Sequence record: PZ445551.1 | Source: a phage | Length of the DNA stretch: 64,000 nt | Strand: one strand, 5' to 3' | Shown: positions 34 to 4,053 of the stretch, one piece after another | Layout: each line of letters opens with the position of its first letter | Numbering within the stretch: position 1 is the first letter of the stretch | Position numbers and translations under genes: made by a program | Notes under the pieces: model-generated | Seen by the model: the letters and a program-made list of their open reading frames with translations, nothing else | What the model was told of the DNA's origin: nothing | Database searches by the model: none

Positions 34-58
34 AAGCCCCTTCGGGGGCTTATTGTTT
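34..58 (+). terminator. Rho-independent terminator (AGCCCC-ttcg-GGGGCT + T-rich tail)
   Basis: Perfect GC stem with UUCG tetraloop followed by TATTGTTT, sits just upstream of the RBS of the 70-2898 gene. Confidence 0.6.
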
Positions 59-69
59 AAGGAGATTAA

Positions 70-2898
70 ATGTATCCTATTCCTTTATTTATGTCAACAA
101 CATCAGCTTCAGTAGTAACAGCTACATCTATAACCACTTCCTCTATTGGTATTGCAATAGTTGGTAGTAAAAAACAACTGACATATACAGTTACACCCGA
201 AGATGGTGCGTTATTTGATATAGCTTTTTCATCTTCAGATAATACCAAAATGGTTATAGATAATAATGGTATGATGGAGTTTGTTGCTGAAGGTGGTTTT
301 GATGCAATAATGACAGCTAAAAATAATTTAGGTGCTGTCTTAACTGATCAATCTGGTGGTTATGCTTCAGAATTAAGTGTGTACACTGAAAGTCTATCGG
401 CTATGGATGTAGGCACTACTCAACAGTTGGTTGCTACAATCAGTCCAGAAGGTGCTAAAGACCTTCCAGACATGGTAATTACATACACCACAACAGATCC
501 AGAAGTAGCTACTGTAAGCCCTACAGGATTAATAACTGCTCTTAAAGATGGCAATTGCCGTATAGGTTGTACTGCAACGTATCAAGGAACAGTTGTGGCC
601 TCTGATAGTTCTTATTTAGGTGTTAATGCTATTCCTGTTATTTCTAATGTAACAGCCGTGGCAAACAGTTATGGAGACGTTCGTGTTGCTTGGGATGTAA
701 CTGATCCGCTAGACGGTGATACTTATACTGTAGAAGTATTAGATTTAAGTAATAACAGTGTCCAATGGACTACAACAACCACGAATACTTACGCCTACTT
801 TGATATCTCTGACTCTATTCCTCTTTATGGGTTTGCTCCAACATACCTTAAAATTAGCGTTAAGAGCACCAAAGCAGCAGCCGTTATCTTTAATAATTCA
901 ATAGCTACAGATGATTCATTCATTAAAGAAGTTATTGTCTTTGCTGGACAAGATAACGTAAATGCACACTTTACAGAACTATCTGGTGCAAATAAAGCAG
1001 CAATGAGTAGCACAACAGCCCGTAATGCATATGCTACGCAACGTGGTTTAGCAAATGCTGAAGTTCTTCCGTTAAATACAGCTTCTGGATCATCAGCAGC
1101 AGATAAATATGCAGATGATAAAGCTGGAACAGGTACACCAGACAACTACTGGTATGATCTGGATAACACAGCAGATGGGCCATGTTTAACTAACTTTATC
1201 ACTAAAGTCACACCTTATGCAAGTAAGGTTAAAGCAATTATTTGGGGACAAGGTGAAAATGATGCTGTATCAGCATCTTCAACTGTTGCAGGTAGGTACA
1301 GTAACACTACACGTTACCATGATGCCACGATAGCCATTTTTGATAAGATGCGTACAATAGTTCCTGCTTCTCAAGCAAAAATTGTTTGGCAGATCCTAGG
1401 ACGTTCTTATTTATATGGTGTAGAAGTTAATGGTGTGGATTGGCAGAAGTACAGAAATGTACAAAGAACCATCTCTACAGCACGTGATGATGTTATCATT
1501 GGTTCTTGGGTAGATGGTGCTGAACGTTACAGTGGCTATGTTTATGAAGAAGGTATTGATGGTCGTATCCATTATGTTTCTTCTGTATACCAAACAGCAG
1601 CTACAAAACTTGCTAAATCGGCAGCAGACGGTACAGACTTAACATCAACGTCACCTGTTTGGGTTGATATGGCTGTTCCAACTGGAGCAACAGCTACTTC
1701 CCAACCTAATCAAGATACAATTTTAGCATGGGATGCTCAAGGCTATAGTAAACACTACTTCCGTAATATTAACGTCTTAACCGCATCTGTATTAACTGAA
1801 CAAACGCTTAATACGAACAGTTATACGTTTACCTATGCAGATCAAGTAGAACAATATGGTTTTGCAGCAGGAACTACTATATTTGATGTTGCATATTATG
1901 ATGAAGCAAATGATGTGTTATCTCCTTTAGTACGTTTTAATGTTAACGTTACAGCAGGAACCGTAGAAGATAAACCTGTCGTGATGGACTATGATTTGAC
2001 GCAAGAAACTCTTCCAGCAGATGTGCGCGTAAACAGGAGCAACCATTATGCTAGGGCTTCTGGAGATATCCTTGTACCGACAGAGGTTTCTGCTCCTATA
2101 GCACCTTTAGAATATATTGGTACAACGCCACAAGGTAGACGTGTTGTAGCAGCCAGCCGTACATATATCTTTGTCAACAATAACTTGACAACAGCTTCCC
2201 CGTGGTTGAAGACGAACTTGACAGTTACAGCATCAACAATCAACTCTCCGGTTGGAACTACAGCTAACACTTACAAGTTAACACCTTCTACAACTTCAGG
2301 ACAACATATTTTATCAGCGGTGAATACAGCTTCTGATATTACAGCAGGTAAACAATGGGCTGCATCTGTATTCTTGAAGCCAGACGGGATCACTAAAGTG
2401 AAGCTCAAATTGACTTCAGGAGATGAGGTTAACGAAGGGACTTATGATCTTGAAGCTGGAACATTTACAGGCACAGATGCAAATATGATCGACATGGGGA
2501 ATGGTTGGTATCGTGTAATCTTACATAAAGTAACGATTGCTAAACAAGCCTCTATGACTTATGAGATTATAGCTTTGAATGCCAGTGGATCAGACACTTT
2601 TGCAGGAGACGGCACTGGAGGTCTTATTGCTTGGGTTCCACAACTTGAAATGGGTGATATGACAAACCCAGTTTGGGCGGGGACACCATTTGTTTGTACT
2701 TATGCACGAGACACAGATAGTGCTGCCACCTTCACTATTCCTAAGAACGGACACACTGGCGTGGATATTTACCACACAGATGGAACTGTGCAAAGAGAGA
2801 TTTTCACTGGCACAGCTACTACTTGGATGTTGTCATTCAACGCCGCAAGTGCGGATTGGGGATCGAAATTCATTTCTGGTTTGAAATATTACGACTAA
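70..2898 (+). CDS. Tail fibre / receptor-binding protein with Ig-like (BIG2-type) domain and a possible carbohydrate-esterase (sialate-O-acetylesterase/SGNH-like) domain
   Basis: 942-aa ORF with SD aaggag upstream; Thr/Ser-rich N-terminus; BIG2-like motif (TGLITALKDGNCRIGCTATYQG); W-QGEND esterase-like motif in the middle; terminator immediately downstream. Confidence 0.65.
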   Translation: MYPIPLFMSTTSASVVTATSITTSSIGIAIVGSKKQLTYTVTPEDGALFDIAFSSSDNTKMVIDNNGMMEFVAEGGFDAIMTAKNNLGAVLTDQSGGYASELSVYTESLSAMDVGTTQQLVATISPEGAKDLPDMVITYTTTDPEVATVSPTGLITALKDGNCRIGCTATYQGTVVASDSSYLGVNAIPVISNVTAVANSYGDVRVAWDVTDPLDGDTYTVEVLDLSNNSVQWTTTTTNTYAYFDISDSIPLYGFAPTYLKISVKSTKAAAVIFNNSIATDDSFIKEVIVFAGQDNVNAHFTELSGANKAAMSSTTARNAYATQRGLANAEVLPLNTASGSSAADKYADDKAGTGTPDNYWYDLDNTADGPCLTNFITKVTPYASKVKAIIWGQGENDAVSASSTVAGRYSNTTRYHDATIAIFDKMRTIVPASQAKIVWQILGRSYLYGVEVNGVDWQKYRNVQRTISTARDDVIIGSWVDGAERYSGYVYEEGIDGRIHYVSSVYQTAATKLAKSAADGTDLTSTSPVWVDMAVPTGATATSQPNQDTILAWDAQGYSKHYFRNINVLTASVLTEQTLNTNSYTFTYADQVEQYGFAAGTTIFDVAYYDEANDVLSPLVRFNVNVTAGTVEDKPVVMDYDLTQETLPADVRVNRSNHYARASGDILVPTEVSAPIAPLEYIGTTPQGRRVVAASRTYIFVNNNLTTASPWLKTNLTVTASTINSPVGTTANTYKLTPSTTSGQHILSAVNTASDITAGKQWAASVFLKPDGITKVKLKLTSGDEVNEGTYDLEAGTFTGTDANMIDMGNGWYRVILHKVTIAKQASMTYEIIALNASGSDTFAGDGTGGLIAWVPQLEMGDMTNPVWAGTPFVCTYARDTDSAATFTIPKNGHTGVDIYHTDGTVQREIFTGTATTWMLSFNAASADWGSKFISGLKYYD

Positions 2899-2900
2899 TA

Positions 2901-2930
2901 AAAAAGGAGCCTATTGGCTCCTTTTCTTTT
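2901..2930. terminator. Bidirectional intrinsic terminator (AGGAGCC-tatt-GGCTCCT flanked by A-run and T-run)
   Basis: Perfect 7-bp stem between convergent genes, with T tracts on both strands. Confidence 0.6.
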
Positions 2931-2933
2931 ATC

Positions 2934-3314
2934 TTAATCAGTGAAAATTACGCTTACATCTTCTTTAGAAAAGAGTTTATGATCTTCACCTTTTGTCTCA
3001 AGAGTTTCATACAGGTTAAGAAGTTCTGAAACATCTTTCTCTACCAGTTTCTTCAATGTTGCAATTTTCTGTTTGCGACTCTTAATACGTTCAGCTACAA
3101 CCTTACGTTGGTATCCAGCAGTACGATAACCTGAGAAAGTTACACCAGTGAGACTTGCAGTTACAGGATCGTAATGACGTTCAATCTGAAATTTATTAAA
3201 AGGTACAGCGTCATCACGAATAATCTTCCCGCCATTACTTACTTGACGAAGACCAGTAACTTGTTCTAGTCGTGCCATAGAAATCTTTGGAGACAGACCA
3301 GAGTCCAGGTTCAT
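2934..3314 (-). CDS. Hypothetical protein (longest ORF extends to 3365; start uncertain)
   Basis: ORF on the same strand as neighbours; internal ATG at 3314 avoids a 44-nt overlap with the upstream methyltransferase gene. Confidence 0.55.
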   Translation of the reverse strand: MNLDSGLSPKISMARLEQVTGLRQVSNGGKIIRDDAVPFNKFQIERHYDPVTASLTGVTFSGYRTAGYQRKVVAERIKSRKQKIATLKKLVEKDVSELLNLYETLETKGEDHKLFSKEDVSVIFTD

Positions 3315-3321
3315 ACCATTG

Positions 3322-4053
3322 TTAATCAGTGCTTTCAGGGTGATTTTGCTGTTCAGTGTACTCATTTAGTCGTTCCTCCGCTTGCTTAAAAATATTTACA
3401 TCGGCTTCACAGCCTAAGTATTCTCTACCTGTTAAAAGTGCCGCAACTTGTGTTGTTGCACTTCCAGAGAAGAAGTCTAAGACTACATCTCCTTCGTTGG
3501 TGTGTATATTAATAAGGTCACAAAACAAAGTCAAGTGTTTTTGTGTTGGATGAAAACGATCTGCTCCTTGATAGATAGGATACTCAAACACACCCTTATG
3601 GTAGGAAGCATTGAAGGTTGGCTTAGAACCTTTAACACAAACAATAGCCATTTCTTTAGCGTTACTAAGATAGTTAACACCACTGTTGATGGGTACAGGG
3701 TTTGTTTTAATCCATTCGATAGTACGGAACATACGAAAACCAAGCGGTTCAAGGATTTCACGTAGCTCCTGGATCTTCCAGATATCATACCAAACTATGC
3801 AAGTACCACCTTTTCTAAGCACCCTATAGGCTTCTTTGAATACTTCTTTAAAGTAAGGAATATCTACAACATCCCAATCACCAAAGTTGTAAGATACACG
3901 GAATCTATCCGTATCTTTTCCAGTAGGCTCTCCAGACTGAAAATTTGTGTCACGAGAAATAGCATATGGTGGGTCAGTAAGAATCAAATCTACACTATTG
4001 CTTTCGAGGGTTTGCAGGTAGTTTAATGCAGTGTTGTTTACAAATTCGCTCAT
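3322..4053 (-). CDS. DNA methyltransferase (beta-class N6-adenine / N4-cytosine, DPPY motif)
   Basis: Motif IV DLILTDPPY precedes motif I FFSGSATT; SD GGAG upstream of ATG. Confidence 0.8.
   Translation of the reverse strand: MSEFVNNTALNYLQTLESNSVDLILTDPPYAISRDTNFQSGEPTGKDTDRFRVSYNFGDWDVVDIPYFKEVFKEAYRVLRKGGTCIVWYDIWKIQELREILEPLGFRMFRTIEWIKTNPVPINSGVNYLSNAKEMAIVCVKGSKPTFNASYHKGVFEYPIYQGADRFHPTQKHLTLFCDLINIHTNEGDVVLDFFSGSATTQVAALLTGREYLGCEADVNIFKQAEERLNEYTEQQNHPESTD

What the first reader, a model, noticed from the sequence alone, without database searches (positions are those of the whole stretch)
70..2898. Tail fibre with embedded Ig-like and esterase-like domains
A W-QGEND motif typical of sialate-O-acetylesterase/SGNH hydrolases lies between a BIG2-like Ig domain and a long C-terminal beta-rich region, suggesting a receptor-modifying (O-antigen or capsule deacetylating) tail fibre.
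Basis: partly seen in the sequence, partly recalled or inferred. Interest (0 to 1): 0.4.

Follow-up and report, generated by a model that had tools for sequence, protein, structure and literature searches.

The report
Phage tail adhesin with serine-less esterase domain
This is a real 942-residue tail-cluster protein of a phi92-like E. coli phage that does contain an esterase-type fold, but the serine that such enzymes need is replaced by aspartate, so it more likely sticks to host surface sugars than strips acetyl groups from them.

Summary
The ORF at 70..2898 (+) is real. It is 100% identical to the 'tail protein' of Escherichia phage VivaForever (Justusliebigvirus, phi92-like) and is the last gene of the tail-fibre cluster.

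- Two Big_2 Ig domains are present.
- The WGQGEND motif lies at aa 392-398.
- A beta-rich C-terminus follows.

The central domain (aa ~284-535) is a confident SGNH/SASA-type fold (AF2 pLDDT 94). Its closest solved relative is the sheath and receptor-binding protein gp65 of phage N4, followed by carbohydrate esterases.

The catalytic inference fails on one point. Most homologues carry GQSN, but this protein and all five Justusliebigvirus orthologues checked carry GQDN (Asp295, GAT at 952-954). Avunavirus relatives carry GGDN and have further eroded the block III Asn and sometimes the His.

The C-terminus (aa ~674-886) is a CBM-like beta-sandwich homologous to the capsule-binding RcGTA head-spike fibre. 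It is exchanged as a cassette between phages.

Best reading: a modular, bead-like virion adhesin with a non-canonical, probably non-hydrolytic, SGNH glycan-binding module and a swappable lectin tip.

This is a new variant of a known kind, of modest interest. No activity or binding was tested.

The parts
34..51 (+). Terminator-like hairpin after the upstream tail-fibre gene (phi92 gp151-type)
   Evidence: sequence read.
59..64 (+). AAGGAG ribosome-binding site, 5 nt before the ATG at 70
   Evidence: Sequence read.
70..2898 (+). CDS of 942 aa. It is the last gene of the tail-fibre cluster and converges on the replication module.
   Evidence: It is 100% identical to VivaForever XNS40758.1 'tail protein'.
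97..630 (+). Two tandem Big_2 Ig-like domains (aa ~10-187), preceded by a conserved M[YF]P[IF]P N-terminal peptide
   Evidence: Pfam Big_2 E 8e-15 to 4e-16, two stretches. PHROG Ig-domain hits. N-terminal conservation seen in P0001, P0080 and P0081.
637..918 (+). Beta domain preceding the SGNH domain (aa ~190-283). It is FN3/Ig-like by inference only and is deleted in the phi92 reference sequence.
   Evidence: It aligns with N4 gp65 as part of the aa 192-610 tblastn match. No Pfam hit. Fold not modelled here.
919..1674 (+). SGNH/SASA-type alpha/beta domain (aa ~284-535) lacking the nucleophile serine
   Evidence: AF2 pLDDT 93.7. Foldseek hits N4 gp65 at TMq 0.76, then 1zmb, CE2, XAC1771, PatB and SIAE. 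Family profile results.
946..957 (+). Block I motif GQDN (aa 293-296). Asp295, codon GAT at 952-954, sits where relatives have the nucleophile Ser of GQSN.
   Evidence: Motif table. Codon. Asp295 is the first residue of helix 1 after strand 1 in the model. Orthologues checked.
1243..1263 (+).
   Evidence: This is the region that aligns to Pfam SASA.
1558..1575 (+). Block V region DGRIHY (aa 497-502), with His501 at 1570-1572
   Evidence: The His is conserved in nearly all Ser-bearing homologues. Block V of homologues aligns to the end of the Pfam SASA profile.
1675..1953 (+). Beta domain after the SGNH domain (aa ~536-628). The short (628-aa) orthologues end here.
   Evidence: Homologous to the domain that follows the second SGNH-like domain of N4 gp65 (alignment to 1009). 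muut and phi92 end at ...RFTVNVT.
1954..2088 (+). Low-confidence linker (aa ~629-673) at the recombination boundary
   Evidence: pLDDT 26-35. Nucleotide similarity to many relatives stops at nt 1884 of the gene.
2089..2727 (+). CBM-like beta-sandwich (aa ~674-886) with GNGWYR and FAGDGT...W.PQLE motifs. It is the variable, cassette-like tip.
   Evidence: RcGTA head-spike fibre Rcc01080 (6tb9) at E 1e-13. Model core pLDDT above 85. Foldseek hits Pa193/E217 tail-fibre chains and CBM70/61/4/27. Divergence is allelic, with dS 1.3 against ALITA.
2728..2895 (+). Small C-terminal beta region (aa 887-942), modelled with low confidence
   Evidence: Conserved only in the closest homologues P0079-P0081.
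2902..2925 (+). Terminator-like hairpin between the convergent genes

Best explanation
The gene encodes a modular, bead-on-a-string virion adhesin of a phi92-like myovirus.

Domain order:
- a short conserved N-terminal peptide
- two Big_2 Ig domains
- a beta domain
- an SGNH/SASA-fold domain
- a second beta domain
- an exchangeable CBM-like lectin tip

The SGNH domain descends from genuine carbohydrate O-acetylesterases. It has lost the nucleophile Ser (Asp295) but keeps the block III Asn and the block V His.

I infer that it no longer turns over acetyl esters by the Ser-His mechanism. Instead it would use the old active-site cleft as a binding pocket for a host surface glycan. The C-terminal CBM-like domain would add a second, strain-variable polysaccharide specificity. 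Together they would give reversible, multivalent attachment that helps position the phage.

Shown here: the ORF, the domain folds, the homologies, the Ser-to-Asp replacement and its conservation, and the cassette-like modularity.

Inferred, not shown: loss of catalysis, glycan binding, the ligand, and the position on the virion.
For: Fold:
- AF2 pLDDT 93.7.
- Foldseek matches N4 gp65 (E 2e-15, TMq 0.76) and then many SGNH esterases.

Esterase ancestry:
- An exhaustive HMMER search found 76 relatives.
- Most carry GQSN, W.QGE.D and ..HY.
- 22 of 32 hit Pfam SASA, some above threshold at 49-51 bits.

Ser loss:
- GQDN is present in VivaForever, ALITA, phi92, PaulScherrer and muut. GGDN is present in Avunavirus.
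- The codon is GAT, at least two changes away from any Ser codon.
- Asp295 lies at the N-terminus of helix 1 after strand 1, the SGNH nucleophile position.

Erosion of other catalytic residues in Ser-less relatives:
- Avunavirus has GEND changed to GEQD, and His changed to Gln in one sequence.
- P0017, P0030, P0036 and P0049 lack both Ser and His.

The domain is still under constraint: dN/dS is 0.027 against ALITA.

Binding role of the context:
- The homologous module sits in N4 gp65, a receptor-binding protein (PMC13434306, PMC12892993).
- The C-terminal domain is homologous to the RcGTA head-spike fibre and is CBM-like by fold.

Modularity at one locus: 628-aa, 939-942-aa and 436-496-aa forms all occur there.
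Against: - No activity or binding assay exists.
- In Justusliebigvirus every other motif residue (Gln294, Asn296, Asn396, Asp397, His501) is retained.
- The Asp itself is conserved across about 50% sequence divergence. This could mean Asp has a catalytic role rather than a binding one.
- The block I equivalence rests on motif identity and position in the model. Pfam SASA alignments of relatives start after block I, and model coordinates could not be inspected for Asp-His geometry.
- The phi92 and ALITA copies are disrupted, so the protein is dispensable on laboratory hosts.
- The oligomeric state and virion location are unknown.
Confidence: 0.55

Rival explanations
1. One reading: an active receptor-modifying esterase. 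The SGNH domain would deacetylate O-antigen, capsule or the NGR glycan as the phage approaches the cell, as G7C gp63.1 does. Asp295 would act as a nucleophile or as a general base with His501.
For: - The SGNH fold and conserved blocks III and V are present.
- Purifying selection is strong.
- Asp is conserved at the nucleophile position between two genera.
- GenBank curators of ALITA and KMB37 call the orthologue 'tail carbohydrate esterase'.
- Ser-bearing relatives are probably real esterases.
Against: - The nucleophile Ser is absent in all orthologues.
- To my knowledge no SGNH hydrolase with an Asp nucleophile has been described.
- Avunavirus relatives with the same Asp have also lost the block III Asn and, in one case, the His. 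That is hard to reconcile with maintained catalysis.
- The query is below the Pfam SASA threshold.
Confidence: 0.2
2. A structural scaffold only. [quoted passage not shown] It would have no ligand of its own. Any receptor contact would come from the C-terminal CBM-like tip, or from none in the 628-aa forms.
For: - In N4 the homologous domains form part of the sheath wall around the tube (PMC13434306).
- The second gp65 copy lacks blocks I and III and the His.
- The cassette is absent from some relatives at the same locus.
- The gene is broken in phi92.
Against: - Active-site-type residues (Gln294, Asn296, GEND, His501) are retained in Justusliebigvirus, with 1 amino-acid change in 251 residues against dS 0.065. 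A mere spacer would not need them.
- The 628-aa forms would then have no functional tip at all, yet they are widespread.
Confidence: 0.15
3. It is the NGR-glycan receptor-binding protein of this phage, because it shares a module with N4 gp65 and phi92-like phages depend on NGR.
For: - Homology to gp65 is strong.
- phi92-like phages need wecB and nfrB (PMC8669472).
- The three BASEL phi92-like phages carry the long form, whereas Eryne, which is poor on NGR, matches only to aa 628 (PMC11984140).
Against: - The published NGR determinant (GMSHY domain) maps to the phi92 gp142-type fibre and to gp65 aa ~410 (bioRxiv 10.64898/2026.04.02.716166). It is present there and absent from this protein and from the window.
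- NGR-using rV5-like Vequintavirus genomes have no detectable homologue of this domain.
Confidence: 0.1

Closest known systems
Phage N4 gp65, non-contractile tail sheath and receptor-binding protein (PDB 9LC0, 9YF4/5/T)
   Same: - The beta-SGNH-like-beta module is homologous: family profile E 8e-76 over gp65 436-602 and 757-1009, Foldseek TMq 0.76, tblastn over aa 192-610.
- Both are virion proteins of phages whose relatives depend on the NGR/NfrA pathway.
   Different: - gp65 is 1382 aa, belongs to a podovirus and has two SGNH-like copies.
- It carries the GMSHY NGR domain directly upstream, at aa 410.
- Its block I is GESQ in copy 1 and absent in copy 2.
- It has no Big_2 N-terminus and no CBM-like tip.
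SASA-type carbohydrate esterases (Pfam PF03629): 1ZMB, At4g34215 2APJ, NanS 3PT5, SIAE 8F9P
   Same: - The SGNH fold matches.
- The block pattern is GQSN / W.QGE.D / His in the family this domain belongs to.
   Different: - The query scores below Pfam's threshold.
- The nucleophile Ser is Asp.
- Identity is 11-17%.
- The domain is embedded in a multi-domain virion protein.
Esterase tailspike gp63.1 of N4-like phage G7C (SGNH O-antigen deacetylase; Prokhorov et al. 2017, cited in PMC11990801)
   Same: An SGNH-fold domain carried by a phage receptor-binding appendage.
   Different: - It did not appear among the sequence hits or the top 50 structural hits.
- From the literature, gp63.1 has an intact catalytic centre and demonstrated activity. 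This protein lacks the Ser.
RcGTA head-spike fibre Rcc01080 (PDB 6TB9) and distal tail-fibre domains of PB1-like phages Pa193/E217 (9B45, 8ENV)
   Same: The C-terminal aa ~674-886 is homologous by sequence (E 1e-13) and similar by fold (E 8e-9 and 5e-7). The conserved GNGWYR core is shared.
   Different: The N-terminal contexts differ. The ligand of this allele is unknown. The model is confident only for the core.

Membership tests
SGNH hydrolase superfamily | Three-layer alpha/beta/alpha flavodoxin-like fold | tested here: met
   AF2 pLDDT 93.7. Foldseek probability 1.0 to many SGNH esterases.
SGNH hydrolase superfamily | Block I nucleophile Ser at the N-terminus of helix 1 | tested here: not met
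   GQDN, with Asp295 (GAT 952-954). Relatives have GQSN.
SGNH hydrolase superfamily | Block II Gly (oxyanion hole) | tested here: inconclusive
   A conserved N.A.GSSAAD stretch (aa ~335-344) is present family-wide (consensus). Its equivalence to block II was not verified structurally.
SGNH hydrolase superfamily | Block III G-x-N-D Asn (oxyanion hole) | tested here: met
   G394-E-N396-D397 within WGQGEND. It aligns to the Pfam SASA block.
SGNH hydrolase superfamily | Block V catalytic His (with Asp, DxxH) | tested here: inconclusive
   His501 is conserved. The nearest Asp (D497) is at i-4 rather than i-3. The geometry could not be measured.
Pfam SASA (PF03629) | Score at or above the gathering threshold of 24.8 bits | tested here: not met
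   The query scores 14.3-16.8 bits. Homologues reach 27-51 bits.
Big_2 Ig-like domain (PF02368) | Score at or above the gathering threshold of 22.8 bits | tested here: met
   54.9-59.3 bits, two stretches.
N4 gp65-type beta-SGNH-beta module | Significant sequence and structure similarity across the module | tested here: met
   Profile E 8e-76. tblastn match to N4 and N4-like sheath proteins covers 89-97% of the query. TMq 0.76.
NGR-binding tail-fibre domain (phi92 gp142 / N4 gp65 aa ~410) | GMSHY-containing domain | tested here: not met
   Absent from the protein and the whole window. Present in phi92 gp142 and N4 gp65.
Phage tail fibre or tailspike in the strict sense | Trimeric fibrous or beta-helical shaft, and a demonstrated position on the baseplate | not testable with these tools
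   Only globular Ig, SGNH and CBM domains were found. 'Tail' labels come from synteny and database names.
Carbohydrate esterase (functional class) | Measured deacetylation of a substrate | not testable with these tools
   No assay was possible.

The most novel reading that the evidence does not exclude
Asp295 is not a dead residue. It would be part of a conserved Asp-His centre that gives the SGNH fold a new chemistry. Examples are an Asp nucleophile or general base acting on an acetylated or de-N-acetylated residue of the NGR glycan. The module would then cooperate with the separate gp142-type NGR-binding fibre. N4 gp65 carries both modules fused in one chain, a Rosetta-stone type link.
Probability: 0.12. 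Interest if true: 0.7.

Novelty: new variant of a known kind. Interest (0 to 1): 0.35.

Why it matters
phi92-like phages are valued for their very broad host range and are candidates for therapy and host-range engineering.

Their last tail-cluster gene is variously annotated as 'tail carbohydrate esterase', 'lateral tail fiber with glycosidase domains' or 'non-contractile tail sheath'. Showing that the esterase fold is real but lacks its nucleophile cautions against treating it as a depolymerase-type enzyme.

It also identifies a compact module shared with the N4 receptor-binding sheath, and a swappable lectin tip. Both are natural targets for host-range mapping and engineering.

If the Asp variant turned out to be active, it would be a new catalytic variant of a very large enzyme superfamily.

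Tried and rejected
- **Word-indexed homologue search of the central domain.** It returned only 2 proteins. The exhaustive HMMER search was needed instead.
- **PDB search with a single Ser-bearing homologue.** It gave no alignment through block I. Pfam alignments of homologues also start after block I. The block I equivalence therefore rests on the motif and the model.
- **Pfam on the flanking beta domains and the extreme C-terminus.** Nothing was found.
- **Schwarzer et al. 2012 (phi92 structure and proteome).** It is not held, so virion presence of gp152/153 could not be checked.
- **Literature searches.** Searches for 'diluted triad' deacetylase and for SGNH pseudoenzymes in phages found nothing. 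The only paper linking gp65, N4 and SGNH concerned another protein.
- **Is this the 'poly-GlcNAc deacetylase' lateral fibre of Maffei et al. (PMC8594841, S5F) and the NGR receptor-binding protein?** Rejected. That determinant is the gp142-type GMSHY domain. rV5-like phages also lack a homologue of this domain.
- **Is the Asp a sequencing error?** Rejected. It is present in independent genomes, and the GAT codon is at least two changes from any Ser codon.
Full report
**What is there**

- The window carries an ATG-to-stop ORF of 942 aa exactly at 70..2898 on the + strand.
- It has an AAGGAG ribosome-binding site at 59-64.
- Terminator-like hairpins lie directly before it (34-51) and after it (2902-2925).
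- The DNA is 100% identical to the 'tail protein' gene of Escherichia phage VivaForever. It is 90-99% identical to genes in dozens of Justusliebigvirus (phi92-like) genomes.
- In all of these it is the last gene of the tail-fibre and tailspike cluster. It follows the colanidase tailspike and a gp151-type fibre gene, and it converges on the replication module.
- Annotations differ between records: 'tail protein', 'lateral tail fiber protein with intimin and glycosidase domains', 'tail carbohydrate esterase' and 'non-contractile tail sheath'.

**Check of the observation**

- Two Big_2 Ig-like domains occupy aa ~10-187 (54.9 bits against a cut-off of 22.8).
- WGQGEND is at aa 392-398, window 1243-1263.
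- The query's own match to Pfam SASA is sub-threshold, at 14-17 bits against 24.8.
- An exhaustive HMMER scan of 1.84 billion representative proteins found only 76 relatives of aa 285-650. Most lie in long multi-domain proteins.
- Of 32 aligned domains, 22 hit Pfam SASA (best E 2.3e-13). Some reach 49-51 bits and extend to the end of the profile.
- A profile of the family hits the N4 sheath protein gp65 at E 8e-76. It hits the SASA-type structures 1ZMB, 2APJ and NanS weakly.
- An AlphaFold2 model of aa 283-562 has mean pLDDT 93.7.
- Foldseek places that model next to N4 gp65 (E 2e-15, TMq 0.76). Next come SGNH carbohydrate esterases: 1ZMB, CE2 enzymes, XAC1771, PatB and SIAE.
- In the viral structure library the model matches phage esterase tailspikes.
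- The hydrolase fold is therefore real and the motif is not a chance match.

**The catalytic centre**

- Across the family, block I reads GQSN, block III reads W.QGE.D and block V ends in His-Tyr.
- This protein reads GQDN, WGQGEND and GRIHY.
- Asp295 (GAT, 952-954) is the first residue of helix 1 directly after strand 1 in the model. That is where SGNH hydrolases place the nucleophile.
- The same FAGQDN is found in VivaForever, ALITA, phi92, PaulScherrer (Bas60) and muut.
- The 49%-identical Avunavirus proteins (Av-05, 19-1-2) read FAGGDN. They have also changed GEND to GEQD and, in 19-1-2, His to Gln.
- Other family members lost the Ser independently (GQAN, GQMN, GHEN, GDAN, GQVN). Several of those lack the His as well.
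- The replacement is therefore old and not an error. It belongs to a recurrent pattern of Ser loss in this family.
- The domain remains constrained: against ALITA there is 1 amino-acid change in 251 residues, with dN/dS 0.027.
- Limitation 1: the block I equivalence rests on motif identity and position in the model, because Pfam alignments of relatives begin after block I.
- Limitation 2: I could not measure the Asp-His geometry.

**The rest of the protein**

- The SGNH domain is flanked by two beta domains, which are co-linear with the corresponding parts of N4 gp65.
- Many orthologues (muut, phi92) end at aa 628.
- In VivaForever, PaulScherrer and others a further 314 residues follow.
- This extension is a different allele in ALITA, with dS 1.3 and 111 of 309 residues changed.
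- Its core (aa ~674-886) is homologous to the RcGTA head-spike fibre Rcc01080 (E 1e-13). From my own knowledge of the RcGTA literature, that fibre binds the capsule.
- The core shares the GNGWYR and FAGDGT...W.PQLE motifs with those relatives.
- It is modelled confidently only in the core.
- By fold it resembles distal tail-fibre domains of phages Pa193 and E217, and carbohydrate-binding modules CBM70, 61, 4 and 27.
- Relatives of 436-496 aa have the same N-terminus and Big_2 domains joined directly to this tip, without the SGNH cassette. One of them lies at the same syntenic locus.
- Both the SGNH cassette and the tip therefore behave as independent modules on an Ig-domain stalk.

**Relation to N4 and the NGR glycan**

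- phi92-like phages and N4 depend on wecB and nfrB, that is on the NGR glycan (PMC8669472, PMC11990801).
- A 2026 preprint maps the shared NGR determinant to a short GMSHY-containing domain in N4 gp65 and in the phi92 gp142-type fibre (bioRxiv 10.64898/2026.04.02.716166).
- I confirmed GMSHY at gp65 aa 410 and in phi92 gp142. It is absent from this protein and from the window.
- The module studied here corresponds to gp65 436-602 and 757-1009, which begins about 25 residues after that motif.
- N4 gp65 thus combines in one chain what Justusliebigvirus encodes in two proteins of one cluster.
- This is a lead for functional cooperation. It is not evidence that this protein binds NGR.
- rV5-like phages that use NGR have no detectable homologue of this domain.

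**Interpretation**

- The best-supported reading is a modular virion adhesin. Its SGNH domain would be a non-canonical, probably non-hydrolytic, glycan-binding derivative of an acetylesterase, and its optional C-terminal lectin-like tip would vary between phages (confidence about 0.55).
- Three rivals remain: an active esterase using Asp-His (about 0.2), a purely structural spacer as in the N4 sheath wall (about 0.15), and the NGR receptor-binding protein itself (about 0.1).
- The gene is disrupted in the phi92 reference by two frameshifts and a 75-residue deletion. In ALITA it carries an in-frame stop at codon 720. It is therefore dispensable on laboratory hosts, as expected for an accessory adhesin.
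- Virion location, oligomeric state, ligand and activity were not testable here.

**Verdict**

The fold and architecture are right, but the Ser/His/Asp centre is not intact, so 'deacetylating' is not supported.
- This is a new variant of a known kind (SGNH domains on phage receptor-binding proteins), of modest interest (0.35).

Noticed in passing
L004 13375-15037 (phi92 FR775895 gp152 + gp153): The phi92 reference copy of this gene is broken. Residues ~199-272 are deleted and there are two frameshifts, which gives the split annotation gp152 ('lambda V-like fold') plus gp153. This is either a pseudogene in the laboratory stock or sequencing errors.
   Followed up: partly
L002 12001-14820 (ALITA PP359570): An in-frame stop at codon 720 inside the C-terminal CBM-like domain explains the split annotation 'tail carbohydrate esterase' plus 'tail protein'.
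   Followed up: partly
L003 3035 (N4 gp65 aa 410) and L004 662 (phi92 gp142): The published NGR-associated GMSHY motif lies about 25 residues upstream of the first SGNH-like domain in N4 gp65. In phi92-like phages it is in a different protein (gp142) from the SGNH module. This is a Rosetta-stone style fusion that suggests functional linkage.
   Followed up: partly
L009 8001-9491 (metagenomic relative, P0080); also P0079 and P0081: At the same syntenic position some relatives encode a 436-496 aa protein with the same N-terminus, Big_2 domains and CBM-like tip, but without the beta-SGNH-beta cassette.
   Followed up: partly
EmilieFrey, JohannJBalmer, PaulScherrer versus Eryne: The three K-12-isolated BASEL phi92-like phages, reported as NGR-dependent, carry the long (939-942 aa) form. 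Eryne, reported to use NGR poorly, matches only to aa 628. This is a correlation of four phages, untested.
   Followed up: no
records MG065639, MG065656, MG065645: Several 146-kb records labelled 'Campylobacter phage' (host C. jejuni) are 92-95% identical to this E. coli Justusliebigvirus gene. The host label is probably wrong, or the records are contaminants.
   Followed up: no
window 2934-4053 (-) and L001 13277-16453: A 143-aa ORF overlaps a Dam-like DNA methyltransferase gene by 44 nt directly downstream, on the opposite strand. Four glycosyltransferase genes sit further into the replication module and may be a DNA or nucleotide-sugar modification system.
   Followed up: no
window 34-51 and 2902-2925: The gene is bracketed by terminator-like hairpins, and no sigma-70-like promoter lies in the 18-nt gap before it. 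Expression would need read-through or an unrecognised phage promoter.
   Followed up: no
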